DNA from: Escherichia phage FXie-2024a
Sequence record: PP107930.1
Length of the DNA stretch: 53,383 nucleotides
Reading direction: 5' to 3' (one strand)
Positions within the stretch are counted from its first letter, which is position 1. Every line of letters starts with the position of its first letter. Shown here piece after piece: positions 2,424-53,024 of this stretch. A program made the position numbers and the translations under genes. The notes beneath the pieces are model-generated. The model saw only the letters and a list, made by a program, of their open reading frames with translations, made no database searches and was not told the origin of the DNA.

Positions 2424-2430
2424 GATTTCC

Positions 2431-39116: not shown

Positions 39117-39134
39117 TTTCACATCCAATTAATG
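39117..39134 (-). promoter_or_regulatory. Copy of recurrent 18-bp motif, about 76 nt upstream of the 38703..39041 gene
   Basis: Plus strand TTCACATCCAATTAATGT. Confidence 0.35.
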
Positions 39135-39164
39135 TGTCAGGACTGCTCTGATTTAACAAACAAC

Positions 39165-39839
39165 TCAATACATATTGAATCGTTCGATTGATTTAATCAC
39201 TAAATCCTTTGTCTCAGCGACAGTGAGTTCAGTTGTAATCGAGTCGTCAATGCCCTCGATTTGAATTGCAACAAAACGTCCCACACCTGTTACAGTCATG
39301 CGGTTGGTTCGGTCACGGATAATCACACCAGCTTCACCCTCAACAGCACGAAGCAGTTTCCAACGAAGTGTGCGATTCGGCACAGCAAAGCCCTTTGTCG
39401 AGAACAACTCTTTCATGAGTTCCCCAAGGCAAACAGCTTCAATGTTCATTCCTCTTCCAACTAATTCTTGCAACAGGCACAATGTCAACATTTCTAAATT
39501 GTTGAAGTGTCCAGCGCGCTCCAGATTAAAGAACTCTGGAGGAACAGTTGAGCGGGATTTAACAGCTTGCTTATATGCACGTTCTTCTTCTTGTGCAGCA
39601 AGCATGAGCATCTCTGGTTTGATGTATTTCATCGCAGAGAAGCCAGCGCGAGTGGCTTTAATGATTCGGCAAGCCTCTTTCATTTTGTAGCGTTGCCACT
39701 CACCGCGTTTAGATTCTGGATTAAAATGGACCCACATGATGATAACATCTTCCTTGGCAAGATAGACGGCATCATTATCATTGAGCCACTGCTTGCACGT
39801 AGAAAGTGCAATTTCTTTGTCATCATCATGATAAGACAT
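39165..39839 (-). CDS. Hypothetical protein
   Basis: 224 aa early ORF. Confidence 0.45.
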   Translation of the reverse strand: MSYHDDDKEIALSTCKQWLNDNDAVYLAKEDVIIMWVHFNPESKRGEWQRYKMKEACRIIKATRAGFSAMKYIKPEMLMLAAQEEERAYKQAVKSRSTVPPEFFNLERAGHFNNLEMLTLCLLQELVGRGMNIEAVCLGELMKELFSTKGFAVPNRTLRWKLLRAVEGEAGVIIRDRTNRMTVTGVGRFVAIQIEGIDDSITTELTVAETKDLVIKSIERFNMY

Positions 39840-39841
39840 TA

Positions 39842-40237
39842 TTAATGGCCTTGTAAGATTCGGTGATTTGCTTCTTCAGCAGGAATTCCCATATCAACTA
39901 ATTTCACCAAGCACTGCGAAATACGCTCTTGCGCCACTTTCTCAATGGTTTGGTAATCTTCGTTGTTTACTCCCAACACATTCTTGGCATGAATGAGTGT
40001 GGTCATAAGGCCATGACCTAAAGCAATGGCTTGCATTGCCTGGAGTTCAAAGTTAATCGTGATGCCAGCCAACTCATGTTCCTGGTCGGCAGCAGATTTG
40101 ATTTCACGAATTTGTTTGCGAAGCTTTTGCTTCAATGTTTTGCGAGCCACTAAAATAGTTCTCCATAAACTCGTTGATTTGACGTCCACTCGCGTGTTGC
40201 AATTTGAATGGACTTGTTTGGGCCGTGGTAGAAACAT
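39842..40237 (-). CDS. Hypothetical protein
   Basis: 131 aa early ORF; annotated start overlaps the upstream gene, so the true start is probably internal. Confidence 0.35.
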   Translation of the reverse strand: MFLPRPKQVHSNCNTRVDVKSTSLWRTILVARKTLKQKLRKQIREIKSAADQEHELAGITINFELQAMQAIALGHGLMTTLIHAKNVLGVNNEDYQTIEKVAQERISQCLVKLVDMGIPAEEANHRILQGH

Positions 40238-40491
40238 CTTTTTATTTCACCGAGGCTGAACTTTGGACCATCTTCGAGAATATATTTAATATCATATTCC
40301 CAAAAACCATCTTTGTGAGACTTACTCAAATAGTTTAATTTAGATGTGCCATTGTAATACCATGACCCACCAATAAGTACGAAGTGTAGTGTTTCTTCAA
40401 CATTATCACTAAAAGCTCTTTCAACATTTCTTAACGTCAAAACTTTAGCAGAATGCTTACGAACCATTTTGCAACTCCTTAATTTTGGCAA
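40150..40491 (-). CDS. Hypothetical protein
   Basis: 113 aa early ORF. Confidence 0.35.
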   Translation of the reverse strand: MPKLRSCKMVRKHSAKVLTLRNVERAFSDNVEETLHFVLIGGSWYYNGTSKLNYLSKSHKDGFWEYDIKYILEDGPKFSLGEIKRCFYHGPNKSIQIATREWTSNQRVYGELF

Positions 40492-40666
40492 TTAAGTCGC
40501 GCATAATTTTGGGTCCAATAGCCAAGTCACCAGTCATGTCACCAATGTCACTGCCTATTGCTTCCGCATTCATCTCCCAACCTTCAATAAGTTCTAACAA
40601 TTCTTCAATTGTGTAGCCTTTAAACTGAAAGTTTTCGTGATTAATTACACCATATTTTTGAACCAT
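40457..40666 (-). CDS. Hypothetical protein
   Basis: About 70 aa from MVQKYGV (ATG 40664..40666) with GGAGAG ribosome-binding site; the annotated longer N-terminus runs into the ORF-free structured region. Confidence 0.4.
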   Translation of the reverse strand: MVQKYGVINHENFQFKGYTIEELLELIEGWEMNAEAIGSDIGDMTGDLAIGPKIMRDLIAKIKELQNGS

Positions 40667-41310
40667 AGGAACTCTCCAATTTTCGATTCGGTGTTTGTGA
40701 CTTCTCTTCTCATCTTTTGGCCTATGAAACAGGCCACAGAGTAGCGCAGGAAGGCCGAAAATCGGACCACTGCCTACCGTTTGTGTCAATTCTGGATAAC
40801 TGCATTGGCGAAGGGTTACTCCCGTTAGGGTGCGACCCGCGCATCATAACTGCATAGCAGTCTGGCAAGCTGCGGAGGTCACAGAGGCTTTGCAACCCTT
40901 CCCAATACATTCACCCAACCTACCCGCTTTGGTATAGCTGGCGGCGCGGTTTTGTGCGGATTATGCCACTCTAAGCCCTGTTTGCCCGACTTCCTCGGAG
41001 CACCAGCAGCTTGTGGCACAAACCTATTTTCGAATGACTAACATAAGCATGAGGCACAACCCTCTAATTATTCAGCCCTAACAGCTTGCTTATTCAGTAC
41101 CAATTCATCCCAATACATCGCTATAACAAGTGAACAGCTTTCTGCGAAGAAGTATTCCGGCCCTTTGGCCTATGTTAAAAGTTAAATGTATGTGATGGAA
41201 ACATTCCATCGAAAAGAACTTTGTAGAACGAATCGAACGTTCTCACACGCCCTGGTACCAGACGGACTACCTAGTTACAAAGTTCTTATCTGATGTTGTT
41301 TCAATTCCAA

Positions 41311-41487
41311 CTAATGTCGAATGTCTTTCTTGCAAACAGGACAAGTGATAAATCTATATGCGAAATATCCTCGGTCATTCTTCCCTGTGTATATCTTTAA
41401 GTCTGAGAATTCATAAGACACAACAGAAGCACATAACCGACATTGGCGTGTGAAGGTTACTGTATCTTTTTCCAGAACTTTAATCAT
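41311..41487 (-). CDS. Zinc-ribbon protein
   Basis: 58 aa from MIKVLEKD; CRLC...CPVC; ribosome-binding GGAG lies inside the upstream 18-bp motif copy. Confidence 0.45.
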   Translation of the reverse strand: MIKVLEKDTVTFTRQCRLCASVVSYEFSDLKIYTGKNDRGYFAYRFITCPVCKKDIRH

Positions 41488-41713
41488 TTCATCTCCAATT
41501 AATGTTTCAGAATTATTCCAATATTCCAAATAAAAAGAATAATAAGAATAAATTAAATAAATGAAGAAAGTGCTTGACACCCATTTGGCGATAAGTGTAT
41601 AATGCCTTTCTTCCCTAAGAGGTCAGAATCAAATCCCACTAATGTTTCAGAATTACGCCGAAGGCCAATGCGAGCACAAAACCCGCTTGGCACTTCGACG
41701 GAACAGCTTGGAA

Positions 41714-41956
41714 CTATTCCAGAACCTTCCAGTCAGAGTCGAATAACTCCTTTGGTCGTGTGTAAATAGTAGAGGAATCAATACTCAAGAAAGTATGATT
41801 CCCATACTTCTTAACTTCCTGGTAAGCAAACCCATCTACCCAACTGCCGCAATGAGTTTTAATCTTTGTAGGCCCAAGAATACGATAGAAAGTGTTTCGA
41901 GGCTGGTGGTGGACAATCAATCCAGCCTCCAGCTCAGCAATATTTAAATCACGCAT
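41714..41956 (-). CDS. Hypothetical protein
   Basis: 80 aa early ORF. Confidence 0.4.
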   Translation of the reverse strand: MRDLNIAELEAGLIVHHQPRNTFYRILGPTKIKTHCGSWVDGFAYQEVKKYGNHTFLSIDSSTIYTRPKELFDSDWKVLE

Positions 41957-42566
41957 TTAAGAACAACACTCCTTCAGAGAAGATGTAGTCGCTGCCGAAG
42001 TCTTTTACAATTGCATCCCAATCAATGTACGGTGCAAGGCGGTCTGGAATATCCAGTGCTTCACTTTGCTTGAAGTAGTCTGCAATTGAGTCACAACGAG
42101 TAATGAACATGTCGTTCAAACTGTTCACAGTGAAAATATCAATTTCACCACTACGGAATGCAGCAAGAATTAAATCCAAGTCAGTGTCAACAAGTAGTTC
42201 ATTGAATTTATCATACTTGCGAATACTGAATAGGCCATTAGCAAAGCAAACTTCGGTAACATCTTCTTCGTTTGATTCAATTACGTCATGTGTACCGTCT
42301 TCTGGATAATCAATGCCGTATTCTTCATGCAAATACTCCCGCATGTCGAAATCATAGTGACGCCAAGACAGGCCATCAATCCACGCATCTACAAATTCAG
42401 AATTAGTTTCGCCTGTGTAGAAACGAACCAATAAGGTTTCATCTCTACGCCAGGACTTTAGCTGTTCTACTGCTTTAGTAATGTTATCGTTTTGCATTGA
42501 GTTTCTCCCACATACCTTGAAGTTCCGCATTAAGGATTTTGAGCTGTTCGATTCGCTCTTTTCCAC
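41949..42566 (-). CDS. Highly acidic protein (possible DNA mimic)
   Basis: 205 aa with dense Asp/Glu; early-region position. Confidence 0.4.
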   Translation of the reverse strand: MEKSESNSSKSLMRNFKVCGRNSMQNDNITKAVEQLKSWRRDETLLVRFYTGETNSEFVDAWIDGLSWRHYDFDMREYLHEEYGIDYPEDGTHDVIESNEEDVTEVCFANGLFSIRKYDKFNELLVDTDLDLILAAFRSGEIDIFTVNSLNDMFITRCDSIADYFKQSEALDIPDRLAPYIDWDAIVKDFGSDYIFSEGVLFLNA

Positions 42567-42774
42567 CCTTTACTAATATGTCTAAGATGGCGGTCTTCTC
42601 TTCGTATGTTACCGGATAGCAACAACCATCAACCGAAATCTCGTACCTTAGATTTCGAGAATCGTACACATAGTTTGACAAATGCTGGTGCAGTTCTGCC
42701 TCTGCACGAGACGTACGCGCTTGCATACGCTCTAACTCTTTCGGTATTTCCTGATATTCCATCGGATGCTCCAT
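42484..42774 (-). CDS. Hypothetical protein
   Basis: 96 aa early ORF. Confidence 0.35.
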   Translation of the reverse strand: MEHPMEYQEIPKELERMQARTSRAEAELHQHLSNYVYDSRNLRYEISVDGCCYPVTYEEKTAILDILVKGGKERIEQLKILNAELQGMWEKLNAKR

Positions 42775-42782
42775 TGATGAAG

Positions 42783-43199
42783 TTATGCTGGAAGTTCGAA
42801 GTGTGGCATATCAATCAGCTTCTTCTTACCTGGTGCGAGTGGTGGATACGGCTGATTTTCATCAATACGGCTCCAGTTTCCACCCCAACGAATGGTAATT
42901 CCAAGCTCTTTTGCAGCCTTGAACATGTGATGAGCTAAAACTTTGAATCGTTCGAGGTCATTCCAGTCAATTGGATATGGTGCAATGTCCAAAGCATTGC
43001 CTGACATGTGTCGGCTAACTGAAACTTTGGTTGCACCCTTCTTTAACAGCTCTTGCTGACGTTCATAGGAGCGTAAACCTTCAAGAACAGTTACATCAAA
43101 CGGCATTGTTTCACATGCACGCTTGAAAACCGCCACTAATGAAGGATTTACACCCTTTAATCTGTCAAGCGAGCGTTGGCCCAACTTAACATTAGACAT
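42783..43199 (-). CDS. Peptidase M15-like peptidoglycan peptidase
   Basis: 138 aa; VSRHMSGNALDIAP and C-terminal DMPHFEL resemble zinc D,D- or L,D-peptidase motifs. Confidence 0.55.
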   Translation of the reverse strand: MSNVKLGQRSLDRLKGVNPSLVAVFKRACETMPFDVTVLEGLRSYERQQELLKKGATKVSVSRHMSGNALDIAPYPIDWNDLERFKVLAHHMFKAAKELGITIRWGGNWSRIDENQPYPPLAPGKKKLIDMPHFELPA

Positions 43200-43458
43200 T
43201 GCTCAGCTCCTGGTCTAGTGTGGCTTGCAAAGTTTTCAGTAAACTCTCATAACTGGCGACTCGCTGTTCCAGTTCAGCCAAACGTTGGTCCTGAATCTCA
43301 ATAAACTGCTTGCGATTCATGGTAAACCAAATATTGTCTGTGAATAGTGAGATTTCCTCACCAGAGGGAAGTTCTTTAAGAACGCTAACACGTACAGAAT
43401 GTGTTGCAAGCTCTTTCTTTGCTGCCGCAAGGCGGTCTGCAAGTTCTTCAACTTTCAT
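43192..43458 (-). CDS. Hypothetical coiled-coil protein
   Basis: 88 aa; heptad-like Leu/Glu pattern. Confidence 0.4.
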   Translation of the reverse strand: MKVEELADRLAAAKKELATHSVRVSVLKELPSGEEISLFTDNIWFTMNRKQFIEIQDQRLAELEQRVASYESLLKTLQATLDQELSNV

Positions 43459-43697
43459 CGGAAGTTATTACCCTGTGGGTTGATGGTTAATTTAAAAGAA
43501 ACACGCTCTTTATTGATTGATGTGCTACCTTCAACGGTTGCTTCAAACAATACTGCGGTTGCTTTCCCTACACGCTCCAAATATTTTACAACTCGGTCGT
43601 GTATTACTGACCAATGGCGGTATTCGCAATTGGATTCGAGTAAGTATGGTACTCCATCAATGGTAAATTCGGCTGACGTCATTTTCTCTCCAAACAT
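43455..43697 (-). CDS. Hypothetical protein
   Basis: 80 aa; 4-nt overlap with the downstream gene. Confidence 0.4.
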   Translation of the reverse strand: MFGEKMTSAEFTIDGVPYLLESNCEYRHWSVIHDRVVKYLERVGKATAVLFEATVEGSTSINKERVSFKLTINPQGNNFR

Positions 43698-44020
43698 CTT
43701 AAACTATGTTGAGGCTGGTGGGCCTTATAGAAGTCATAATCGCGATAAATTTGCAGGAATAGCGAGCCATGATGGTCCATACCCATAACTGCAAGTTTGC
43801 TATTGACTATGTTGAATAGGTGGATGGTGTTTGAATCTCCACTTTCCGGAACTTCAACCCAAGTACCTGGCTCAAATGTGATTGATGCTACAATAGGCCT
43901 GTTTTCAAACTGGTCTAAAGTTACATCAAAGCCGTCACAACCAAATTTAACCTGTTTGGCTTCAGATTTAAAGGTTAAGACGCCGAAAAAGACAACTAAG
44001 AAGATATAAAACGTTTTCAT
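43679..44020 (-). CDS. Secreted or periplasmic small protein
   Basis: 113 aa; N-terminal signal-like MKTFYIFLVVFFGVLTFKSEA. Confidence 0.45.
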   Translation of the reverse strand: MKTFYIFLVVFFGVLTFKSEAKQVKFGCDGFDVTLDQFENRPIVASITFEPGTWVEVPESGDSNTIHLFNIVNSKLAVMGMDHHGSLFLQIYRDYDFYKAHQPQHSLRCLERK

Positions 44021-44250
44021 TTAAACCTCAAGCAATTAATAATTAATCGAGGCCACTCGAAGTGGAATGACCTCTGTTAATTACTGCTGGTTATTTTGCA
44101 TAACACACTGCGCACTTTCAACAACAAGTTTGCCATTTGCTTTTATGTTGTTAATTTGTTGTACGCACTCTTGATGGGAGATGTTTGGCACAACTGCCGT
44201 AGTCAACATATCCGAATAAGTTGCTGATAATATTAACAATAGTGTATACA

Positions 44251-45168
44251 TTACAGCTTCTTAGTCAGTTCAGACGCTTTGCTGTAGGCAACTTCCATTT
44301 CGTCTCGCGTTACCTTAACAACTGTTGCCTTATCAACACGAAACGATGTTTTTGCTACGGCAATCTTGCCATCTTCTCCTGGCTCAAGCAGGATTGCTTC
44401 TAGCATTTGTTCCAGCTTTTGCAGAAGAATACGTTGTGCTTCGATTGCATTTTGAATATTTAATGTTTCCATTACTGCTTTTACCTTTCTCGAATAAGTT
44501 CCATATAATGTCAGGAGCACTTGCAAACCTTTTACACCATCATGGTCAATATTGACTTTATTGTATTTGGAGTACGGATGCTTGTACGTAGTTGTAACAG
44601 TTGCCCAATTGCCCTTATACCAAATAACATCACCAACTTCTACATCAGCACCTTTAACATCCTCTTCGTCTGAGAATGGTTTCACTGCTTCTTCATATGG
44701 AAGGAATGTTGGATTTATTTGAGTATCGAACTTCACTGTGGGAGTTTCCTGTGCTGGTGGCGTATTAACAATGTGGACTATGCGGTTGGGTGAAAAGTCA
44801 AAGTATCCTGTTACATGGGTTAATCGAACTACATTTTCAGGTATTTCCCCAAGGTCTTTAACTTCCTTTATCTCAAAGAATCTGATTCCGTAAGATAAGA
44901 TGTTTCCAGGTCGTACTTCATGCGCCAATACTGCACGGGTTGTGGTAGGCTTTGTAAAAGATTCTGTAGTGGGACGTTTTTCCAATACTCTGACTATACG
45001 GCCCAACTCAAAATTAAAGAATCCGCCAGAGTATTGTAGCTGAACTACATCACTAAGTCTGTTGATGTGTACAATCGGATACCCTCTACCATCATGAAAT
45101 ACAATGTCGCCAGTTTTAACCAAGTTGGCAGGTATTTCGACAACCTTATTGTCCATGATATTCCTCAC
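44251..45168 (-). CDS. Hypothetical protein with internal repeats
   Basis: 305 aa; repeated beta-hairpin-like segments (GDIVFHDGRGYPIVHI, NRIVHIV, GDVIWYKGNWATV). Confidence 0.45.
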   Translation of the reverse strand: MRNIMDNKVVEIPANLVKTGDIVFHDGRGYPIVHINRLSDVVQLQYSGGFFNFELGRIVRVLEKRPTTESFTKPTTTRAVLAHEVRPGNILSYGIRFFEIKEVKDLGEIPENVVRLTHVTGYFDFSPNRIVHIVNTPPAQETPTVKFDTQINPTFLPYEEAVKPFSDEEDVKGADVEVGDVIWYKGNWATVTTTYKHPYSKYNKVNIDHDGVKGLQVLLTLYGTYSRKVKAVMETLNIQNAIEAQRILLQKLEQMLEAILLEPGEDGKIAVAKTSFRVDKATVVKVTRDEMEVAYSKASELTKKL

Positions 45169-45277
45169 GCATTGCTGAACAGTGTTTGCATACCCAAATG
45201 GTTACATAATCGTTTTCGTGTGAAATTTCCCAATTATGTAGCCCTATAAAACATAAAATTTTCATAGGGCATCTCCA

Positions 45278-45655
45278 TTAAAACGGAATGTCGTCGTCGA
45301 AGTCTTTCGGCTCATTTGGGTTGTATGTAGAATTACCCTGGGATTGCTGAGCAGGAGCTTGCTGTTGCTGAGTTGGCTGCTGACGTGGCTGTTGCTGTTG
45401 AGCGGCAGCTTGAGGTTGAGCTTTGGCTTTAGCTTTCTCTTCACGCTTACGCATCATTTCGTCAACTTGTTCCTGAGTCATGATGGTGAGTGCCAACGAG
45501 GTAAATTCGGTGTTGCCAGCTTTCTTATTCCAGCCAGACACCCAATACCAGATACCTTCTACGTTAATGCGGCCACGAACGTCTGGATGATTTTCAGCTT
45601 TCTTAAAGCCATTGGAACCTAGAATACCAGTGTTTAAATCGTTAAATTGTGCCAT
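45278..45655 (-). CDS. Small SSB-like protein with E. coli SSB C-terminal tail
   Basis: 125 aa; Gln/Pro/Ala-rich linker and terminal DFDDDIPF, matching the last eight residues of E. coli SSB as recalled. Confidence 0.55.
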   Translation of the reverse strand: MAQFNDLNTGILGSNGFKKAENHPDVRGRINVEGIWYWVSGWNKKAGNTEFTSLALTIMTQEQVDEMMRKREEKAKAKAQPQAAAQQQQPRQQPTQQQQAPAQQSQGNSTYNPNEPKDFDDDIPF

Positions 45656-45729
45656 GATTAAATTCTCTTTAAGTTAATTACAGTTTAAGTTTCAGTGACA
45701 TTGCTAACCACGGAATAGCTTTGTCTCTC

Positions 45730-45747
45730 TTCAAATCCAACTAATGT
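45730..45747 (-). promoter_or_regulatory. Copy of recurrent 18-bp motif, about 75 nt upstream of the SSB-like gene
   Basis: Plus strand TTCAAATCCAACTAATGT. Confidence 0.35.
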
Positions 45748-45789
45748 TAGATTAATCATGGACACCTACAGAAGATGCCCATTGTTAAT

Positions 45790-45972
45790 TTAACAGGATT
45801 TACAATATTTGGTAAAACTCCTGCGCAATTTGCGGATTTGCTTTTTGGTTGGCTTTACTGGAAGGTGTATTACCTGACAATTGTCTAAGTATGAGTTTCC
45901 AAAAGACTCTCTAAACCACAACGTCCAACCAGCCTCACCAACGGTATTATATAAACGAGTGGATATAATCAT
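45790..45972 (-). CDS. Hypothetical small protein
   Basis: 60 aa basic ORF. Confidence 0.3.
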   Translation of the reverse strand: MIISTRLYNTVGEAGWTLWFRESFGNSYLDNCQVIHLPVKPTKKQIRKLRRSFTKYCKSC

Positions 45973-46489: not shown

Positions 46490-46772
46490 ACTTCACCTTC
46501 TCCCATTTGGATAATCCACCTTCAAGACTGAAGATGCGGTTACAACCAGAATCATCTTTAATGACGAACTGAGTTCCTGTTAACTGGATTGGCTCAAGAG
46601 AGCCAAACAAAACTTTAGGCTTTGATAAGCTGGTGGCAAGAACAACATAGGCTTTGCTTGGGCAAATATCAAAAGCAAAGTCACGAGTATAGACTAAGTC
46701 ACCAACTTTCAAATATGCTGGCAAGATACGACCTGTGGCTGGGTCACGTTGTAAACGAGTACACTGTTTCAT
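46482..46772 (-). CDS. Hypothetical protein
   Basis: About 97 aa from MKQCTRL (ATG 46770..46772, GGAG ribosome-binding site); the annotated longer start overlaps the upstream hairpin. Confidence 0.4.
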   Translation of the reverse strand: MKQCTRLQRDPATGRILPAYLKVGDLVYTRDFAFDICPSKAYVVLATSLSKPKVLFGSLEPIQLTGTQFVIKDDSGCNRIFSLEGGLSKWEKVKCG

Positions 46773-46802
46773 AAATGCTCCAAGTTGATTAATAATATTC
46801 AG

Positions 46803-46829
46803 CAACCACTCTCATTACAAAAGTGGTTG
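46803..46829 (-). terminator. Hairpin downstream of paralog A
   Basis: CAACCACT / AGTGGTTG stem 6 nt after the stop at 46836; same element repeated at 47101..47127. Confidence 0.35.
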
Positions 46830-46835
46830 AGGAAA

Positions 46836-47072
46836 TTATTTAACTTCTTCCCACACAAACAGGAATCCAACTACAGGCACATTTTCACCAATATTCCAAT
46901 ACGGACGGCCACGCCCATTGCTTCGCATTCGATTCCCACTATTGGTTATAGTAATGTATGGCTGTAATTCACCATTTACTTCAAGGTCAATCAAATCACC
47001 CTCAAGTTCATCTCCAACCTGAACTGATTTAGAACCTATTGGTGCTTTAATACAAACAAACTTCTTTGCCAT
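46836..47072 (-). CDS. Small paralogous protein A (78 aa)
   Basis: Shares PYWNIGE...VP...W.EEVK C-terminus with the 83-aa neighbour. Confidence 0.5.
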   Translation of the reverse strand: MAKKFVCIKAPIGSKSVQVGDELEGDLIDLEVNGELQPYITITNSGNRMRSNGRGRPYWNIGENVPVVGFLFVWEEVK

Positions 47073-47100
47073 TTTTGATACTCCGATTAATAATATTCAG

Positions 47101-47127
47101 CAACCACTCTCGCTATAAGAATGGTTG
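47101..47127 (-). terminator. Hairpin downstream of paralog B
   Basis: CAACCACT / ATGGTTG stem with the same flanks as 46803..46829. Confidence 0.35.
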
Positions 47128-47133
47128 AGGAAA

Positions 47134-47385
47134 TTATTTAACTTCTTCCCAGGTCCAAATACTACCTTTTAATGGGACTTTTTCGCCAATGTTCCAATAG
47201 GGTCTGCCATTGACAGCCATTCGGTTTCCAACATCCGAAATAATTATTCGAGTGTCGATTCCGTGTTTTCGCTGTATGTTGATAAGTTCTCCTTCAATCA
47301 CATCTCCAACTTTTGGAGTATGTTCGGATGAAGAGGTTGATTTCACACATTTAAACTTTGTCATTGCAATAAACCTTGTTCGCAA
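47134..47385 (-). CDS. Small paralogous protein B (83 aa)
   Basis: Paralog of 46836..47072 (KFKCV, VGNRMAVNGRPYWNIGEKVP, WTWEEVK). Confidence 0.5.
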   Translation of the reverse strand: MRTRFIAMTKFKCVKSTSSSEHTPKVGDVIEGELINIQRKHGIDTRIIISDVGNRMAVNGRPYWNIGEKVPLKGSIWTWEEVK

Positions 47386-47588
47386 ATGTCTGCAAACTCC
47401 GCACGATGGTCACGCTGCCATGTCCAGAATGCACCATTCATCGGAACGACAGCACCTTTACGGAATGCCGGAGAAATGCTTTCAGCAGATTTGGTTACTT
47501 TAAATTCCAAAGGCGAAATAGCTTCACCTTCAATGATTAAGCCAACTGGAACGTAGTCTTTGTTGGAAGCAACACATTTAAATTTCAT
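47361..47588 (-). CDS. Small paralogous protein C (75 aa)
   Basis: KFKCV start and W.W motif suggest a distant third paralog. Confidence 0.4.
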   Translation of the reverse strand: MKFKCVASNKDYVPVGLIIEGEAISPLEFKVTKSAESISPAFRKGAVVPMNGAFWTWQRDHRAEFADICEQGLLQ

Positions 47589-47590
47589 GG

Positions 47591-47773
47591 TTATCCTCTT
47601 GGTGGAATATTTCCACTGTTATCTATAAGTTTACCGCGATAAATATTTAAACCACAATCTACACAGAATGCGTTATCCAGAACTACGGGACCATACATTC
47701 CCACAGCTTCATGAGCCACATGGTCTACATTATTGCTGCCACACTTTGGGCAAACAACATCATCCTCATTCAT
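47591..47773 (-). CDS. Zinc-ribbon protein
   Basis: 60 aa; CPKC...CVDC. Confidence 0.4.
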   Translation of the reverse strand: MNEDDVVCPKCGSNNVDHVAHEAVGMYGPVVLDNAFCVDCGLNIYRGKLIDNSGNIPPRG

Positions 47774-48038
47774 GGTATAAAACTCCTAATTCAGATTTGA
47801 GGTTAAATTCACGAAAGAAATCCATTGTTACAAAACGGATTTTACCTTCATCATCAACTACGTTACAGGAGATTTCGGAGTGGACCATACGGCCCAACTT
47901 CAAAGCAACTTCTGACAGGTTTGCTTCACCAGTGCCAGAAATTACTTCATAGATTTTATATGGAGTAAAGCCGCTTAAAGAGTTATTACGGCTTGGGACA
48001 ATCATCATTCCGGTCTTAGTAGCCATAATAACTCCCAA
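47766..48038 (-). CDS. Hypothetical protein
   Basis: 90 aa early ORF. Confidence 0.4.
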   Translation of the reverse strand: MGVIMATKTGMMIVPSRNNSLSGFTPYKIYEVISGTGEANLSEVALKLGRMVHSEISCNVVDDEGKIRFVTMDFFREFNLKSELGVLYHE

Positions 48039-48041
48039 TTG

Positions 48042-48338
48042 TTATTTGGTTGGAGGTGTTAGCCTTTCGATTTCTTCAAGTGCATCTGCAAGCCGTTGTT
48101 GCAAATTGTTTCGGTCTTCTTGCAGAGCATCGTAAGATTTCTGGAACTCAATCAACACGTCTGCTCGACGGTCTGATTCAGTTTGTAAGTCATACACTTG
48201 CCTTTCAAGTACATTGATGTGCTCACCAGCCAAAGCCAGAATTGCAACATCAACACGCATTGAGGTGAGAATGTCGGGATTGCTTGGAATCGAATTCTTA
48301 GCAACGTTCGTTACATCAAGGAATTTCTGAATTGACAT
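48042..48338 (-). CDS. Hypothetical coiled-coil protein
   Basis: 98 aa; coiled-coil-like C-terminal half. Confidence 0.4.
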   Translation of the reverse strand: MSIQKFLDVTNVAKNSIPSNPDILTSMRVDVAILALAGEHINVLERQVYDLQTESDRRADVLIEFQKSYDALQEDRNNLQQRLADALEEIERLTPPTK

Positions 48339-48433
48339 TGAATTACCTTATTAAAAGATTAAGAAGCTGCCCACAACGAGCAGCACCAGAGGGAACATCA
48401 GAATACAGAATACGAGCTTCTTTACAATATCCA

Positions 48434-48610
48434 TTATTTCACCAGGAAGTAGAGAACAATAGCAACACCAACACATGCAATGATTGTTGGCATATAATTA
48501 TCAATTTTACGATATTGACGTTCGACTGGCTTCTTGCCTTTGATGGCATCCATCAGTTCTTGATGATTAATTTGCTGCATGAATGTGTTGAATTGCTGGT
48601 CATTCATCAT
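48434..48610 (-). CDS. Small tail-anchored membrane protein
   Basis: About 58 aa from MMNDQQ; C-terminal TM helix IIACVGVAIVLYFLV; ATGA-type overlap with the upstream ORF. Confidence 0.4.
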   Translation of the reverse strand: MMNDQQFNTFMQQINHQELMDAIKGKKPVERQYRKIDNYMPTIIACVGVAIVLYFLVK

Positions 48611-48789
48611 TTGTTCCTTAACTTTACATTCTTCCCAACAAGTGCACAATCTTTAAGCCATCGTGTTTTTAGACTTGCTGGGAACCAAGTTTTAAATTCT
48701 TCGGAGTAAACCTTTGTGAAATGGAACTCTGGTGTGGTCAGTATGAGCATCCCACCACCAGTTCTTAGTAGCAGATTCTCATAACTCAC
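48607..48789 (-). CDS. Hypothetical small protein
   Basis: 60 aa; stop overlaps the next start. Confidence 0.3.
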   Translation of the reverse strand: MSYENLLLRTGGGMLILTTPEFHFTKVYSEEFKTWFPASLKTRWLKDCALVGKNVKLRNK

Positions 48790-48950
48790 TTAATACTCCA
48801 AATATCCATAAATTGATTTAATGCGTCTTGCCACTTCACGAGCAGGCATACGTGGATTGGCCTCTTTAGCCATTTTCTTCAAACGTTTGTTTGAGCCACC
48901 GTAGGCAACAGCGTAAACACAGGATTTAAAAGATTTGAAATGAGATAGTT

Positions 48951-49139
48951 TCATTTTGCTTCCAGAATTTGATTTAATCCACTGAACACGATTTCTTCAT
49001 GTTCGTCAGTTGTACATGCGTTGATGTACTCAAAGTCATAGCCAACAAACTTCTCCGCCCACTCCTGTAAACGAAGTAAAGAATTGAAGTATAACCTTTG
49101 CTCTACACCATTTAATTTGAAGAAGACGATGAAGTCCAT
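48951..49139 (-). CDS. Hypothetical small protein
   Basis: 62 aa early ORF. Confidence 0.35.
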   Translation of the reverse strand: MDFIVFFKLNGVEQRLYFNSLLRLQEWAEKFVGYDFEYINACTTDEHEEIVFSGLNQILEAK

Positions 49140-49140
49140 A

Positions 49141-49383
49141 TTAACCTCTTACTTTCAGGAAATCTGGATGTGCGGCAGTTGCCACAACTTTGTGATGTTT
49201 GTCATTCTGGATTGCTTGCCAAACATATTCAGGATATGCGGCATTATTCCACACCAGCTTGTTTTCGTAAATTGATGTATAAGATATTAAGTCTGCCAAC
49301 ATTATTGCTCTGGTTTCAGTATTAACCAAAGCATGAGAAACAACACCATCACGATTGATGTATTGATACAGTGCATAATTCAT
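49141..49383 (-). CDS. Hypothetical protein
   Basis: 80 aa early ORF. Confidence 0.4.
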   Translation of the reverse strand: MNYALYQYINRDGVVSHALVNTETRAIMLADLISYTSIYENKLVWNNAAYPEYVWQAIQNDKHHKVVATAAHPDFLKVRG

Positions 49384-49632
49384 TTAGAATCCCTCGTTAT
49401 ACCCAGCAGTGTTACGAAGAGTCACTTCAACATCTTCGTCATCAGGAATTAATTCGACTTCAATATTGACAACAATATTGTCACTAAAAGTACATGCCTT
49501 ACTTGAATCAAAGAACTTTACAGCATTGTACTTATCTGACTCATTTACTTTAATCCACTTCACAGAACGAACAGTGAAGATTTGACCATCTTGCAGGTCT
49601 TTGAAACAAGCAGCTTTAATCACAGTATCCAT
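49384..49632 (-). CDS. First early protein after the iteron region
   Basis: About 82 aa from MDTVIK (ATG 49630..49632) with GGAG ribosome-binding site; preceded by a long hairpin leader. Confidence 0.4.
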   Translation of the reverse strand: MDTVIKAACFKDLQDGQIFTVRSVKWIKVNESDKYNAVKFFDSSKACTFSDNIVVNIEVELIPDDEDVEVTLRNTAGYNEGF

Positions 49633-49656
49633 TTTATTCTCCAAAGTTAAAGGAAA

Positions 49657-49722
49657 ACTCCCTACAGAACGATTGTGGAGGTCTTGTCTTACCTCAATCC
49701 ACCTTAAAGTTGTAGGGAGTAT
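49657..49722 (-). promoter_or_regulatory. Structured leader hairpin before the first early gene
   Basis: 10-bp inverted repeat ACTCCCTACA / TGTAGGGAGT enclosing an inner stem, followed by a U-run, a ribosome-binding site and the ATG. Confidence 0.35.
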
Positions 49723-49779
49723 GTGACACAACAAGTGCCGAAAACTACAATGATTAGCTTGGAGACATAATCTCTCTAA

Positions 49780-50650
49780 AATCTGTCACAGAATTTACAG
49801 AGATTTGGTCTTATTCACATGCAACTAATGATAAATGAACATGCTTAATTGCAACTAATTCATCTGCCAAATAGACGAATTTTGTCACAATCAAACATGC
49901 ATCATTAATTATAGGTTTACACCTATCTTGGAATGTATTTGGCACATCAAGAAGTGGCGCAATAGGTACGGAAAACCGACCATGTACAGCATAATAAAAC
50001 CAATTAAATAAAGGGTTTTATCCCAATATTGTCACAATATTTACATGCGATGATAAAGCCTTCGCTTGGCTGGAAGCCAGTATTCATGCGGGTTGCAAGA
50101 ATATTGGGTCATTGCTGATACAGCTATTACATGCGAAATTGGCACAAATACTGTTACAAAATTAACATGCCAGATTGGCAGACGATTGTATCTTCGAGGT
50201 GATTAGTCCTCTAACAATTCTGCCACATTCCAACATGCCAATTTGTAGCAATATTTACATGCCATACTGCGACGCAATTGTCACAATATTTGTTGCTCAA
50301 AATCGGGGCGGCTTCTGCGTGCAAACGAGAGGCTTAGTCCGACTTCTTCTCTTCTTTCGATTTCTGATTGAAAGAAAGAAGCATGTCCAAAAGTTCCAAT
50401 ATTACCAAAGTTATCTCCCGGCTTGTGGGTGGGCCTTTATAATAGGAGATGGAGCAATATTGTCGCAATTGAACATGCCATAGGTGAAGTACAAGTTTCG
50501 GATAGATATTCCTACTCTGTGTCATGGTTGCTGGAACTATAGGTGGCCTACCTAGGGAGTTCAATGATTGCCACATCATTACAACACTGTAACTCAAAGC
50601 TGACATGCTGAATGTTTCTAGAATGATTCAACATTACATGCGGAATATTT
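49780..50650. repeat. Iteron-like repeat cluster (candidate origin or promoter array)
   Basis: ORF-free ~0.9 kb with about 10 to 12 copies of a 18-19 bp motif near TTGTCACAATATTTACATGC (examples 49882..49900, 50029..50048, 50151..50170, 50221..50238, 50243..50262, 50460..50478). Confidence 0.55.
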
Positions 50651-50721
50651 CTCCGTATTCTTTTACTTCACATCCAACTAATGTAAGAGTTGTGTAACGA
50701 TATTGAAGACAGCTCTTAAAT

Positions 50722-50752
50722 TAATTGAAACAAGAAAAGGGAGCCGAAGCTC
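50722..50752 (-). terminator. Intrinsic terminator after the RNA polymerase operon
   Basis: Minus strand reads GGGAGCTTCGGCTCCC followed by TTTTCTTGTTTC, just after the 66-aa ORF stop at 50760. Confidence 0.5.
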
Positions 50753-50759
50753 CCAAGTA

Positions 50760-50960
50760 TCAGAACGGTATCTCTGTATCAAAGTACCCAGAATTGTGTA
50801 AGAATGAGTGCAATAATACATGCGATTCTTGCTTATATTCTGCTAACAATTCTAAGAAGTCTTTAGTCTCCTCCACTGTAGGACGAGATAAGTTGCTCAT
50901 GTCACAGGTGTGATGAGGATTGAAACAGTTTTCGATTTGATTGATTTGTTGAATGTTCAT
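50760..50960 (-). CDS. Hypothetical small protein
   Basis: 66 aa ORF immediately downstream of the RNA polymerase gene. Confidence 0.4.
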   Translation of the reverse strand: MNIQQINQIENCFNPHHTCDMSNLSRPTVEETKDFLELLAEYKQESHVLLHSFLHNSGYFDTEIPF

Positions 50961-51009
50961 TATAAGTCTCCAAGTTTGTGGTCATCCTTGACCCAATTAG
51001 TGTCACTGA

Positions 51010-52950
51010 TTATTGACAGAAGTAGTAAGCGTGTTCGCTCATCAGAAGCTCTTCAGTTACGATGTTCTCGTGATACATCTGAATGCCGCCAAGTTGCTTA
51101 GACAGATTCTCGAATTGATTGTTGGTTACAAAGATTTCAACATATGCTGCACGAATAACTTCCATCATACGTGGAGCATCAGCTAAGCAGCAACGGAAAC
51201 AATCATGGATTGAAGTGAAGCCACGAAGACCAGCTTCTTTAGCTTTAACTGCAACAGTACGAGCAACAAGTGCATCAATACCTTGAATGTAGTTAACAAC
51301 GAAGGTGCGTTTAAATTCTTCCTTAGTTGGATTGGATTCACGAATGGTCCAAGGCTTGTTCTCCTGAATCTGGCCAAAGATAACACGAGTTTGGCTGTCA
51401 ACACGGATGCTGAATGCCTCACAGATTTCACGAGATGGGAAGCAAGGCTTCATTACAACCTGACCATCAGTGTGACGATATGTGATGTACTCTTTGTTGA
51501 GTTCAACACAACGGTTGTATGCAGCATCAGCAGCTTTCTCGATGAACATGTTAATCTTAGCACCCAATGCGTTATGGATTGCTTCTACACACAGTTCAGC
51601 AAATGCCTCAGCTTTCTCCATAGGAATCTGGAGAGATGCAGTCATGTATGCAATGAAGTCAGAAGAACCAGTCAATGCAGCTTTACCACCACCGTATTGA
51701 ATAGCCATATACGGAGTTTTGATAAACTTACGACCAGCTTTCGGATTCAAGAATTCATCCATGATTTCAGGAGATGGTTTCATTGAAGAACGGTCGAGCA
51801 GCTTCAACAGTTCACGAAGACTCAACTGGTATGGGTCAGATGCTTTAGTCTCAGAATCAACCAGACCTGTTGCACGAGCCATTTCCATGTTACCAGCAAT
51901 GAATGCCAGATATTGAGTACCAGAACATTTAGCATCTAAACCAAAGCCTACACGAGAATCGCACTCACCTGTAGTCTCAAACTTGAACCAATCCAGAGCC
52001 AGACGAACATAAGTGAATGGCTTAGAAGGACGTTCAGATTTGTCCATGTTCATCATGCGAGCAAGTGAACCAGCTGGATTTGATGCAACATAAGTTAATC
52101 GCTTAGCAGAAGCCCATTCACCACCAGAAATATCTTCCAGCTCTGCCATGAACATGTTGTATGCAATGGTAGTAGAACCATCTTCGTTAAACTTCTTAAC
52201 GATGTTCTCAACATTGTGAGAATACAAGCAACGAGCAAAGTCAGATGATTGTGGGTTAGGACCAGCACATGCTACATGATACAGACGACCACGGTTATCA
52301 GCAAAGTAGTCAGAGTACAGTGTATCCTGAGTCATCATTGCTACAGCATTGTTCCAAACATGGAGTTCAGTCTGGATTGCTTCTGGCATCTGCAAGCCAC
52401 CATAAGTACGCTGCTCAATCATGGACTGGATGATGCGAACCATCTCAGTCTCCACATGGTACTCAGTATCTTGCAGGAATTCGATTGCAGCTTTCAGAGT
52501 CTTGGATGGCTTAACTTTGCCACCTTTAACGAAAGGCTTGCGACGAGATTCAGTGGTAACACGCTCAGTGAATGGCACTGAGGTATCTTTGGTTGTAACC
52601 AGCTCAACCCATGCATCAGTTTGTTGGAACGACTTATCTTCGTTCATGGTGATGAAGCCAAAGTGTTTAGCCAGACCAATCAGGTTGATAGCTGGGTCAA
52701 CATAGTGCATTGCTTTCAAATCGTTGTTATAACGGTTGGCATCAGCAATAGAAGCAGAAGCCAGTTCAACCATCGAGATGGCAGGTACAACATCGTCACG
52801 AGTGAAAGACGTCATCATCTTGAAGATGGCTAACGCAGCAATAGCACAAGTCTGAGGCTGCATATAGTTCTGTTTCTCTTTGGCACGGTATACCAGAGCA
52901 GTGATAGCAGGAACAACGGATTTGATAGTTTGAGTAGAGATAGTAGTCAT
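51010..52950 (-). CDS. Single-subunit DNA-dependent RNA polymerase, compact form
   Basis: 646 aa from MTTIST (GGAG ribosome-binding site). T7-RNAP-like motifs: DNRGRLY, motif A GLDAKCSG, motif B KTPYMAIQYGGGK, motif C SIHDCF. N-terminal domain much shorter than T7 RNAP. Confidence 0.8.
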   Translation of the reverse strand: MTTISTQTIKSVVPAITALVYRAKEKQNYMQPQTCAIAALAIFKMMTSFTRDDVVPAISMVELASASIADANRYNNDLKAMHYVDPAINLIGLAKHFGFITMNEDKSFQQTDAWVELVTTKDTSVPFTERVTTESRRKPFVKGGKVKPSKTLKAAIEFLQDTEYHVETEMVRIIQSMIEQRTYGGLQMPEAIQTELHVWNNAVAMMTQDTLYSDYFADNRGRLYHVACAGPNPQSSDFARCLYSHNVENIVKKFNEDGSTTIAYNMFMAELEDISGGEWASAKRLTYVASNPAGSLARMMNMDKSERPSKPFTYVRLALDWFKFETTGECDSRVGFGLDAKCSGTQYLAFIAGNMEMARATGLVDSETKASDPYQLSLRELLKLLDRSSMKPSPEIMDEFLNPKAGRKFIKTPYMAIQYGGGKAALTGSSDFIAYMTASLQIPMEKAEAFAELCVEAIHNALGAKINMFIEKAADAAYNRCVELNKEYITYRHTDGQVVMKPCFPSREICEAFSIRVDSQTRVIFGQIQENKPWTIRESNPTKEEFKRTFVVNYIQGIDALVARTVAVKAKEAGLRGFTSIHDCFRCCLADAPRMMEVIRAAYVEIFVTNNQFENLSKQLGGIQMYHENIVTEELLMSEHAYYFCQ

Positions 52951-53006
52951 TTGTAAGTCTCCAAGATTGTGTATGATTTGAATGAAACGGATTATAATAG
53001 CGTAGC

Positions 53007-53024
53007 CATTACACAATTCACGTC
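53007..53024 (-). promoter_or_regulatory. Copy of recurrent 18-bp motif, about 60 nt upstream of the RNA polymerase ATG
   Basis: Plus strand TTCACGTCCAACTAATAT; family consensus TTCACATCCAACTAATGT. Confidence 0.35.

What the first reader, a model, noticed from the sequence alone, without database searches (positions are those of the whole stretch)
39117..53024. Recurrent oriented 18-bp motif upstream of early genes, candidate phage promoter
At least eight copies of TTCACATCCAACTAATGT-like sequence (minus-strand reading ACATTAGTTGGATGTGAA), all in the same orientation, at 39117, 41300, 41488, 41628, 45730, 49814, 50665 and 53007. Several lie 60 to 76 nt upstream of start codons, including the RNA polymerase gene itself. 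A phage with its own single-subunit RNA polymerase is expected to carry a conserved promoter of this length. One copy (41488) supplies the ribosome-binding site of the adjacent gene, so the motif may have more than one role.
Basis: partly seen in the sequence, partly recalled or inferred. Interest (0 to 1): 0.6.

Follow-up and report, generated by a model that had tools for sequence, protein, structure and literature searches.

The report
Putative phage RNA polymerase promoters
The repeated 18-base motif is real and is most likely the promoter read by this phage's own T7-like RNA polymerase. The same motif was already annotated as a putative promoter in the related phage phiEcoM-GJ1 in 2008, so this is a sound rediscovery that still lacks experimental proof.

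Summary
The window is a complete genome of a phiEcoM-GJ1/ST32-like myophage (Chaseviridae, Carltongylesvirus-like), given as its reverse complement, so all genes lie on the minus strand.

The motif aCATTAGTTGGAnnTGAA (gene strand) occurs exactly 10 times, always on the gene strand. About 0.07 copies are expected by chance.

Eight copies are fully intergenic, one overlaps only the last 7 bases of a small ORF, and one lies inside the 3' end of a gene. Five sit just after stable hairpins. The genome encodes a 646-aa RNA polymerase with a T7 RNA polymerase fold.

The motif is conserved, on the gene strand only (54 to 0), in all six genera of the subfamily Cleopatravirinae. In all seven genomes compared it sits upstream of ssb. 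It is absent from a Nefertitivirinae phage whose polymerase is only about 35% identical.

GenBank records EF460875 (phiEcoM-GJ1, 2008) and OL960574 already annotate these sites as putative phage promoters. I found no experimental validation, and the 2022 ICTV profile calls the family's promoters unidentified.

Possibly new points: a copy upstream of the polymerase gene, an inferred start at the invariant G16, and motif copies that bracket swappable mini-cassettes.

Verdict: promoter reading supported, already known, low to moderate interest.

The parts
53017..53034 (-). Motif copy ATATTAGTTGGACGTGAA, 66 nt upstream of the RNA polymerase ATG. Not annotated in phiEcoM-GJ1. It lies inside the predicted direct terminal repeat, about 130 nt from the physical left end.
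50667..50684 (-). Perfect-consensus copy ACATTAGTTGGATGTGAA (equivalent to GJ1 'phage promoter 1'), 55 nt after an intrinsic terminator. Homology to GJ1 and to Mangalitsa resumes exactly at its 5' edge.
49814..49831 (-). Copy TCATTAGTTGCATGTGAA (GJ1 promoter 2), 7 nt after a long hairpin and 181 nt before the next gene (ATG 49632).
45730..45747 (-). Copy ACATTAGTTGGATTTGAA (GJ1 promoter 3), 74 nt upstream of ssb. A copy sits in this position in all seven Cleopatravirinae genomes compared (six genera).
41628..41645 (-). Copy ACATTAGTGGGATTTGAT (GJ1 promoter 4), 10 nt after a very stable hairpin.
41488..41505 (-). Copy ACATTAATTGGAGATGAA. It is the left bracket of a 188-nt cassette, and its variable positions spell GGAGA, the ribosome-binding site of the 58-aa ORF that starts at the very next base.
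41300..41317 (-). Copy ACATTAGTTGGAATTGAA (GJ1 promoter 5). It is the right bracket of the cassette and contains the cassette ORF's TAG stop codon. At least 390 nt of gene-free, well conserved sequence follows.
39118..39135 (-). Copy ACATTAATTGGATGTGAA (GJ1 promoter 7), 76 nt upstream of ATG 39041.
31260..31277 (-). Copy GCATTAGTTGGATATGAC (GJ1 promoter 8). It lies inside the last 48 nt of the small gene after DNA polymerase and 58 nt upstream of ATG 31201.
11333..11350 (-). Copy ACATTAGTTGAACGTGTA (GJ1 promoter 9). It abuts a terminator hairpin after the 1239-aa tail gene and is 23 nt upstream of the baseplate-hub gene (ATG 11309). The terminator-then-motif arrangement is kept across genera.
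25845..25862 (-). Weak candidate eleventh site CCATTAGTGGATTGTGAT (11.6 bits), about 31 nt upstream of the large terminase start. Weak sites occupy the same place in Faunus, 4HA13 and Myduc.
51010..52950 (-). Gene for the 646-aa single-subunit RNA polymerase, the enzyme presumed to read the motif.
50739..50754 (-). Intrinsic terminator GGGAGCTTCGGCTCCC followed by a T run, between the 66-aa gene and motif copy 50667.
41311..41487 (-). 58-aa four-cysteine ORF (phrog_2834). This is the cassette between two motif copies; it is present in some relatives and absent or replaced in others.
11353..11384 (-). Terminator hairpin immediately upstream of motif copy 11333.

Best explanation
The motif is the promoter of the phage-encoded T7-like single-subunit RNA polymerase.

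Proposed sequence of events (inferred, by analogy with T7): host RNA polymerase first expresses the 646-aa phage polymerase. That enzyme then binds the asymmetric double-stranded element aCATTAGTTGGAnnTGAA, probably through the beta-ribbon at residues 506-537, which occupies the place of T7's specificity loop. It then transcribes leftward in window coordinates. Transcripts run through blocks of genes until hairpin terminators, several of which sit directly upstream of the next motif copy.

I infer that initiation is at the invariant G at motif position 16, giving RNAs that begin 5'-GAA.

The ten copies (twelve per virion if the terminal repeat is duplicated) would drive these genes or regions:
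- the polymerase gene itself;
- a roughly 1-kb gene-poor region;
- the small-gene cluster that starts at ATG 49632;
- ssb and the genes downstream of it;
- a variable slot that holds a small cassette;
- the gene block that starts at ATG 39041;
- the genes after DNA polymerase, starting at ATG 31201;
- the baseplate genes.

What is shown: the sequence, its statistics, its positions, its conservation and the polymerase fold. What is inferred: binding, the start site and the timing.
For: - Ten copies against 0.07 expected, all on the gene strand, with a clean score gap.
- Eight copies are fully non-coding and one more overlaps only a stop codon, against about 18% non-coding sequence (P about 1.5e-6).
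- An intrinsic terminator or stable hairpin lies just upstream of 5 of the 10 copies.
- The polymerase matches Pfam RNA_pol. The AlphaFold model has pLDDT 90.8, and its best structural matches are T7 RNA polymerase structures at probability 1.0.
- In seven Cleopatravirinae genomes there are 54 strong sites on the gene strand and none on the other. There are none in the Nefertitivirinae phage pAh6-C.
- Copies sit in syntenic positions upstream of ssb, downstream of the polymerase gene and upstream of the baseplate hub. The copy near the polymerase gene sits at different distances from a conserved neighbouring element in different genera, which argues that the motif is selected in its own right.
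- The putative specificity ribbon (FSIRVDSQTRVIFGQ) is nearly invariant across the genera that share the motif core.
- A logo of 35 sites from five other genera shows conservation only across positions 1-18, with G10 and G16 invariant and nothing conserved downstream.
- Earlier annotators reached the same reading independently (PMC6989608 for PP101).
Against: - There are no experimental data. [quoted passage not shown]
- The motif shows no significant similarity to the T7, T3, SP6 or K11 promoter consensus, so the analogy rests on architecture, not homology.
- No strong copy precedes the major capsid gene or most late genes. Late expression would therefore need very long transcripts, weak sites or another mechanism.
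- Copy 41488 abuts an ATG, so a transcript started there would lack a normal leader.
- The weight matrix was trained on the window's own sites, which makes the within-window score gap partly circular. The mismatch search and the other genera are independent of it.
Confidence: 0.8

Rival explanations
1. The motif is the binding site of another phage- or host-encoded DNA-binding protein, such as a regulator of host-polymerase transcription or a replication or packaging factor, and is not recognised by the phage polymerase itself.
For: Short conserved intergenic repeats can be operator-type sites. No strong copy precedes the capsid gene. The ICTV profile treats the promoters as unidentified.
Against: The element has no dyad symmetry. 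It is strictly co-oriented with transcription: 54 to 0 across seven genomes. Its length and information content match single-subunit polymerase promoters. It follows terminators. No sigma-70 -10 or -35 element is conserved beside it for a regulator to act on.
Confidence: 0.08
2. The motif acts at the RNA level, as a processing, stability, antitermination or translation signal within longer transcripts.
For: Strand specificity and intergenic position fit an RNA element as well as a promoter. One copy does supply a Shine-Dalgarno sequence. Conserved hairpins lie nearby.
Against: The motif has no significant or conserved secondary structure: z-scores run from -2.4 to +0.2, and the weak ACAU/AUGU pairing is broken at the variable positions. 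The distance to the next start codon ranges from 0 to more than 390 nt. The order terminator-then-motif suits restarting transcription, not processing it.
Confidence: 0.06
3. The motif is a host sigma-70 (or alternative sigma) promoter element.
For: TTGGAT inside the motif loosely resembles a -35 hexamer. Near the polymerase gene, a possible extended -10 (TGTGATATT) overlaps the motif copy (my reading of the sequence; not tested further).
Against: Nothing is conserved at the distance where a -10 would lie. The consensus sigma-70 scan finds no enrichment in the region, 33 sites against 36.9 expected, and no scan hit overlaps a motif copy. The motif is confined to phages that carry this polymerase type.
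Confidence: 0.03
4. The motif is chiefly a recombination or insertion target, and its spread reflects cassette mobility rather than regulation.
For: Inserts in the 41488/41300 slot are always bracketed by full motif copies, with at least four states among eight genomes. Homology breaks fall exactly on motif edges.
Against: Copies upstream of essential, non-mobile genes (ssb, the baseplate hub) are conserved in place across six genera. Recombination between dispersed promoter copies is an expected by-product, as shown for PeSLs in T4-type phages (PMC2839356).
Confidence: 0.03

Closest known systems
Putative phage promoters 1-9 of Escherichia phage phiEcoM-GJ1 (GenBank EF460875; Jamalludeen et al. 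2008, Appl Environ Microbiol 74:516), re-annotated in vB_EcoM_SA91KD (OL960574). Eight consensus promoters were also proposed for Pectobacterium phage PP101 (PMC6989608).
   Same: Same core sequence (ACATTAGTTGGATGTGAA), same strand and same syntenic positions. Window sites 50667, 49814, 45730, 41628, 41300, 39118, 31260 and 11333 correspond to GJ1 promoters 1-5 and 7-9.
   Different: The window has an extra copy, 41488, that comes with a cassette GJ1 lacks. The copy upstream of the polymerase gene (53017; GJ1 position 571) is present in GJ1 but not annotated there. GJ1 'promoter 6', which lies inside a gene, scores only 9.6 bits here (39450) and is probably kept by the protein sequence. None of these sites has been tested experimentally.
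Promoters of T7-group phages (T7, T3, SP6, K11; Autographiviridae), read by single-subunit RNA polymerases
   Same: A 17-23 bp asymmetric element. Multiple copies co-oriented with the genes. Intergenic placement, often after terminators. A polymerase with the same fold, including a beta-ribbon where T7 has its specificity loop. An invariant G where initiation would be expected. One copy close to the genome's left end, comparable to T7's left-end promoter (phi-OL). The T7 details are from my own knowledge.
   Different: No significant sequence similarity: the best ungapped match is 7-8 of 14-17 bases, and 57-87% of shuffles do as well. The polymerase is about 240 aa shorter than T7's (646 against 883 aa); about 165 of the missing residues come from the N-terminal promoter-binding region. 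The host phage is a myovirus. Strong copies cluster in the first 14 kb, and late-region copies are the most degenerate, which is the reverse of T7, where the late (class III) promoters are the ones that match the consensus.
PeSLs (promoter-early stem-loops), the mobile regulatory cassettes of T4-type phages (Arbiol et al. 2010, PMC2839356; PMC4122927)
   Same: Dispersed copies of a promoter element, often paired with a stem-loop, flank small non-essential ORFs. They also mark the junctions of insertions, deletions and replacements between close relatives.
   Different: PeSLs contain sigma-70-type early promoters, and both their promoter and terminator activity and their mini-circle formation were shown experimentally. 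Here the element is a presumed phage-polymerase promoter and the shuffling is inferred from eight genomes only.

Membership tests
phiEcoM-GJ1-type putative phage promoter (Chaseviridae, Cleopatravirinae) | Match to the annotated 20-mer consensus (nnACATTAGTTGGATGTGAA) | tested here: met
   The ten window sites have 0-3 mismatches to the 18-mer. The annotated GJ1 features carry the same core.
phiEcoM-GJ1-type putative phage promoter (Chaseviridae, Cleopatravirinae) | Same gene-strand orientation and syntenic positions as in phiEcoM-GJ1 | tested here: met
   Whole-genome alignment places eight window sites at GJ1 promoters 1-5 and 7-9.
phiEcoM-GJ1-type putative phage promoter (Chaseviridae, Cleopatravirinae) | The genome belongs to the clade and encodes the clade's polymerase | tested here: met
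   87-91% nucleotide identity to Carltongylesvirus genomes. The polymerase is 92-98% identical to theirs.
Single-subunit (T7-like) RNA polymerase promoter, as a functional class | A T7-like single-subunit RNA polymerase is encoded in the same genome | tested here: met
   PF00940 at E = 6.7e-18. Model pLDDT 90.8. Foldseek top hits are T7 RNA polymerase at probability 1.0 and TM about 0.6.
Single-subunit (T7-like) RNA polymerase promoter, as a functional class | A conserved asymmetric element of about 17-23 bp in multiple copies, co-oriented with the genes and mostly intergenic | tested here: met
Single-subunit (T7-like) RNA polymerase promoter, as a functional class | Transcription starts at a fixed position in or at the 3' end of the element | not testable with these tools
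   Indirect only: G16 is invariant in all 45 sites examined and nothing downstream is conserved. 5'-end mapping is needed.
Single-subunit (T7-like) RNA polymerase promoter, as a functional class | Specific recognition and initiation by the cognate polymerase without host factors | not testable with these tools
   In vitro transcription with the purified enzyme is needed. No such data turned up in the literature searches.
T7-group promoter sequence family (T7, T3, SP6, K11 consensus) | Sequence similarity to the 23-bp consensus (for example the CACTATAG core) | tested here: not met
   The best ungapped matches are no better than shuffled controls. The consensus sequences were taken from my own knowledge.
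PeSL-like mobile regulatory cassette | Repeated promoter elements at the junctions of insertions, deletions and replacements between close relatives | tested here: met
   One slot has at least four states among eight genomes, each bracketed by motif copies. Homology breaks fall on motif edges. Only two loci were examined.
PeSL-like mobile regulatory cassette | A composite of promoter plus stem-loop terminator | tested here: inconclusive
   Stable hairpins precede 5 of the 10 copies but are not part of a fixed repeat unit. The copies that flank the cassette have no hairpin of their own.
PeSL-like mobile regulatory cassette | Recombination between copies that yields excised mini-circles | not testable with these tools
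   PCR or sequencing across the predicted circle junctions in infected cells or virions is needed.

The most novel reading that the evidence does not exclude
Besides being promoters, the dispersed motif copies may serve as portable recombination junctions that move small promoter-led gene cassettes in and out of Chaseviridae genomes. That would be a PeSL-like modular shuffling system built on a phage-polymerase promoter instead of a sigma-70 promoter.

The slot at window 41505-41300 holds at least four different contents among eight related genomes, and each insert is bracketed by full motif copies. In this genome the left copy has also been altered at its two variable positions so that it supplies the cassette gene's ribosome-binding site.
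Probability: 0.35. Interest if true: 0.45.

Novelty: already known. Interest (0 to 1): 0.27.

Why it matters
If the motif is confirmed, it would fill the gap the ICTV profile states for Chaseviridae (promoters 'not yet identified'). It would also define a promoter and polymerase pair that differs in sequence from T7, T3 and SP6, with a polymerase about 240 aa smaller than T7's. Such a pair could be useful as an independent expression system alongside the existing ones.

Confirmation would also allow a transcription map for a phage group that is used in biocontrol of E. coli, Erwinia and Pectobacterium. As a discovery, though, it repeats an in-silico prediction that has been in GenBank since 2008, so the gain from this window alone is small.

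Tried and rejected
It is uninformative, apart from multi-copy contigs of Chaseviridae size.
- Sequence search of the polymerase against PDB chains found nothing with one sequence and only weak T7 matches with a 7-sequence profile. The fold comparison was needed.
- The Rfam gathering-threshold search and ARAGORN on the whole window found nothing.
- The 2008 phiEcoM-GJ1 paper and the 2011 Y2 paper are not held in the library. The prior prediction is therefore documented from GenBank feature tables, not from the papers' text.
- Literature searches for the motif string returned only unrelated primer sequences.
- I looked for covariation between the promoter and the polymerase specificity loop. Both are nearly invariant within Cleopatravirinae, so only co-conservation can be claimed.
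- De novo repeat discovery found no second motif family of comparable strength that could serve late genes.
- The 90-aa ORF at 50337-50606, 60 nt downstream of copy 50667, has no PHROG match and poor conservation. I treated it as probably non-coding.

Full report
**What the window is.** Megablast of 39000-53383 hits Escherichia phages Mangalitsa, ST32, SKA49 and phiEcoM-GJ1 and their relatives at 87-91% identity. These belong to Chaseviridae, Cleopatravirinae, Carltongylesvirus by the taxonomy lines. Alignment to phiEcoM-GJ1 is collinear over the whole window in reverse-complement orientation, so all genes are on the minus strand. The two window ends overlap by an exact 127 bp, so this is a circularised assembly of a genome of about 53,256 bp. 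The minus-strand ORF 52950-51010 encodes a 646-aa protein. It matches Pfam RNA_pol PF00940 and is 92-98% identical to the annotated RNA polymerases of Carltongylesvirus phages.

**The observation.** TTCACATCCAACTAATGT with up to 3 mismatches gives 10 matches, all in one orientation. Chance expectation is 0.07, and 0 of 100 shuffles reach 10. Read on the gene strand, the element is aCATTAGTTGGAnnTGAA. A weight matrix built from these sites scores them at 22.9-29.9 bits. The next best position on the gene strand scores 11.7 and the best on the opposite strand 13.1. That gap is partly circular, because the matrix was trained on the same sites, but the mismatch search is independent of it.

With a heuristic gene map, eight copies are fully non-coding, one overlaps only the last 7 bases (the stop codon) of a small ORF, and one lies in the last 48 nt of a gene. 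Given about 18% non-coding sequence, at least nine of ten falling outside genes has P about 1.5e-6. Leaders from the motif end to the next credible start are 66 nt (polymerase), 74 (ssb), 76, 58, 23, 140, 181, 0 and at least 390 nt.

**Prior knowledge.** GenBank EF460875 (phiEcoM-GJ1) carries nine regulatory features labelled 'putative phage promoter 1-9'. Their sequences are this motif. Eight of them map onto window sites 50667, 49814, 45730, 41628, 41300, 39118, 31260 and 11333. Record OL960574 (vB_EcoM_SA91KD) annotates the same sites as 'similar to promoter of phiEcoM-GJ1 (Jamalludeen N, et al., 2008; Appl. Environ. Microbiol. 74, 516-25)'. The PP101 paper hypothesises eight consensus promoters for the phage polymerase in that group, shown only in a figure (PMC6989608). 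[quoted passage not shown] My literature searches found no transcript mapping or biochemical test. The finding is therefore an independent rediscovery of a published but unvalidated prediction.

**Tests of the promoter reading.**

- *The enzyme.* An AlphaFold model built on 49 homologs is confident (pLDDT 90.8, pTM 0.87). Its best structural matches are T7 RNA polymerase structures, followed by mitochondrial RNA polymerases (probability 1.0, TM about 0.6). A profile alignment anchors residues 153-253 and 563-611 to T7 residues 317-454 and 791-839. About 165 N-terminal residues of T7 therefore have no counterpart. The model has a four-strand beta-ribbon at 506-537, between the conserved YGGG and HDCF motifs. 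By my knowledge of T7, that is where the specificity loop lies.
- *Conservation.* Scanning whole or near-whole genomes of phiEcoM-GJ1, Faunus, 4HA13, PP101, Y2 and Myduc finds 5-10 strong sites each (polymerases 66-93% identical to the window's). The total is 54 on the gene strand and 0 on the other. There are none in the Nefertitivirinae phage pAh6-C, whose polymerase is about 35% identical.
- *Synteny.* A copy lies 31-74 nt upstream of ssb in all seven genomes. A terminator hairpin followed by a motif-like sequence precedes the baseplate-hub gene in all of them. A copy precedes the polymerase gene region. In window, GJ1 and Faunus, the polymerase-proximal copy lies upstream of a conserved GGCTACGC element. 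In PP101, Y2 and Myduc it lies downstream of that element. The motif is therefore kept independently of its flanks.
- *Extent.* A logo of 35 sites from the five genera that were not used to build the matrix shows information only at positions 1-18, with a weak T at -4. G10 and G16 are invariant and nothing downstream is conserved. There is thus no sigma-70 -10 partner, and the sigma-70 scan shows no enrichment.
- *RNA structure.* Folding six copies with flanks gives no significant or shared structure.
- *Context.* An intrinsic terminator (50754-50739) and other stable hairpins (z from -2.8 to -6.5) end 0-55 nt upstream of five copies. SA91KD's annotators also placed terminators directly before four of the homologous promoters.
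- *The recognition ribbon.* The ribbon sequence FSIRVDSQTRVIFGQ is almost invariant in the genera that share the CATTAGTTG core. This is co-conservation, not covariation.

**Inferred mechanism.** The phage polymerase binds the duplex element and initiates within it. G16 is invariant in all 45 sites examined. It is preceded by the most variable, AT-leaning positions (12-15) and followed by A-rich sequence. The base after the motif is not conserved. I therefore infer that +1 is G16, giving RNAs that begin 5'-GAA, as SP6 transcripts do (the SP6 detail is my own knowledge). This is an inference, not a result.

The motif has no significant similarity to the T7, T3, SP6 or K11 consensus. It is a distinct promoter sequence with a T7-like architecture. 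No strong copy precedes the major capsid gene. A covarying hairpin sits there instead. A weak syntenic site lies upstream of the large terminase (window 25845). Late expression is therefore not fully explained.

**The ribosome-binding-site remark and the cassette.** Copy 41488 reads ACATTAATTGGAGATGAA followed by ATG. The two normally variable positions give GGAGA, placed 4-8 nt before a 58-aa four-cysteine ORF that belongs to phrog_2834. Alignment to GJ1 stops exactly at the 3' end of this copy and resumes exactly at the 5' end of copy 41300. GJ1 has a single copy there.

Among eight genomes this slot takes several forms:
- empty in GJ1 and Bp10;
- this 188-nt cassette in the window and Mangalitsa;
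- a 323-nt version in PYps16N;
- an unrelated 137-nt insert in ST32 and SA91KD;
- replaced by other sequence in PYps3T.

Every insert is bracketed by full motif copies, and the right junction is always the motif followed by GAAACAACATCAGATAA. Homology to both GJ1 and Mangalitsa also resumes exactly at the 5' edge of copy 50684-50667. This resembles the PeSL-mediated modular shuffling described for T4-type phages (PMC2839356). It is suggestive but rests on only two loci. If +1 is G16, a transcript from copy 41488 would have a 3-nt leader. The ORF is more plausibly translated from read-through RNA started at copy 41628.

**Genome ends.** Mangalitsa's PhageTerm-predicted terminal repeat (1-3234) maps to window 53163 down to about 50337. 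Similar repeats are annotated in 4HA13 and Myduc. If the same holds here, the polymerase gene and copies 53017 and 50667 lie in the repeat and occur twice per virion, and copy 53017 is about 130 nt from the physical left end. Its position and the possibility of polymerase autoregulation recall T7's left-end promoter (my own knowledge). This copy is present but unannotated in GJ1 (position 571).

**Verdict.** The promoter interpretation is well supported by sequence evidence (confidence about 0.8) but remains unproven. It is already in the public record for close relatives, so novelty is low. Interest is low to moderate, lifted slightly by the testable start-site prediction, the small divergent polymerase and the cassette-junction pattern.

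Noticed in passing
window 41300-41505 (compare L001, L010, L132-L136): A variable slot bracketed by motif copies. Among eight related genomes it is empty, or holds a 188-nt cassette with a 58-aa Cys4 ORF (phrog_2834), a 323-nt version, an unrelated 137-nt insert, or a replacement. The right junction is always the motif followed by GAAACAACATCAGATAA.
   Followed up: partly
window 49790-50300: Six to eight copies of a roughly 19-nt repeat (GCATGTAAATATTGTGACA-like) in a gene-poor stretch of about 1 kb between motif copies 50667 and 49814. The repeats begin just past the terminal-repeat boundary mapped from Mangalitsa (about 50337). They could be origin, packaging or repeat-boundary signals, or host promoters.
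   Followed up: partly
window 1-127 and 53257-53383: The two ends of the window are identical over 127 bp, which is an artefact of circularising the assembly. Unique length is about 53,256 bp. By homology, the true left end would be near window 53163, with a terminal repeat of about 2.8 kb that contains the RNA polymerase gene.
   Followed up: partly
window 41097-41300: A gene-free stretch downstream of motif copy 41300 is 93% identical to GJ1, which is more conserved than the neighbouring genes. It has a perfect 12-bp stem (AAGAACTTTGTA / TACAAAGTTCTT) around a sequence that resembles a tRNA T-arm (GAACGTTCGATTCGTTC). ARAGORN and Rfam find nothing. It may be a small RNA or a tRNA remnant.
   Followed up: partly
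window 45751-45789, 41650-41708, 49839-49900: Very stable hairpins without clear U-tracts end 7-10 nt upstream of three motif copies. The one before ssb shows compensatory changes across genera (GGTACA/TGTACC, GGTGCA/TGCACC, CTGTGTA/TACACAG). They could be terminators for the phage polymerase or RNA-stabilising or processing hairpins.
   Followed up: partly
window about 20425-20460 (upstream of the major capsid gene, ATG 20418): No motif copy precedes the capsid gene. Instead a covarying GGCG...CGCC hairpin sits just before its ribosome-binding site in five genera. High capsid expression may depend on RNA processing or stability.
   Followed up: no
window 45680-45700 and about 31215-31235: A shared leader element, CTGAAACTTAAA, lies between the motif and the ribosome-binding site of ssb and of the gene at 31201. 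The ssb copy is conserved in most of the other genera; the 31201 copy is seen in close form only in GJ1. It may be a translational enhancer.
   Followed up: no
window about 53028-53070: A possible sigma-70 extended -10 promoter (TTGTAA, 17 nt, then TGTGATATT) overlaps the 5' end of the polymerase-proximal motif copy. It falls below the scan tool's threshold. If the terminal-repeat mapping is right, it could be what expresses the left-end polymerase gene early.
   Followed up: no
L009 (Aeromonas phage pAh6-C) 23700-28900: This Nefertitivirinae phage lacks the motif. It has a family of short hairpin repeats, RGCTCTNNCGAGCC followed by RMAAG, clustered downstream of its 843-aa polymerase gene. 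These are candidates for its own promoters or terminators.
   Followed up: no
proteins P0074, P0079, P0107, P0117: Homologs of this polymerase (36-52% identical) occur on contigs of chromosome size or of 137-240 kb from Hafnia alvei, Lelliottia, Pseudomonas brenneri and P. laurylsulfatiphila. This suggests integrated or resident relatives of a phage family described as strictly lytic.
   Followed up: no
window 39450-39467: The counterpart of GJ1 'phage promoter 6' lies inside the 224-aa gene (phrog_13087) and scores only 9.6 bits here. Similar in-gene sequences in PP101 and Myduc score 17.4 bits and encode the same peptide (LVGRGMN), so the protein sequence may explain the conservation.
   Followed up: partly
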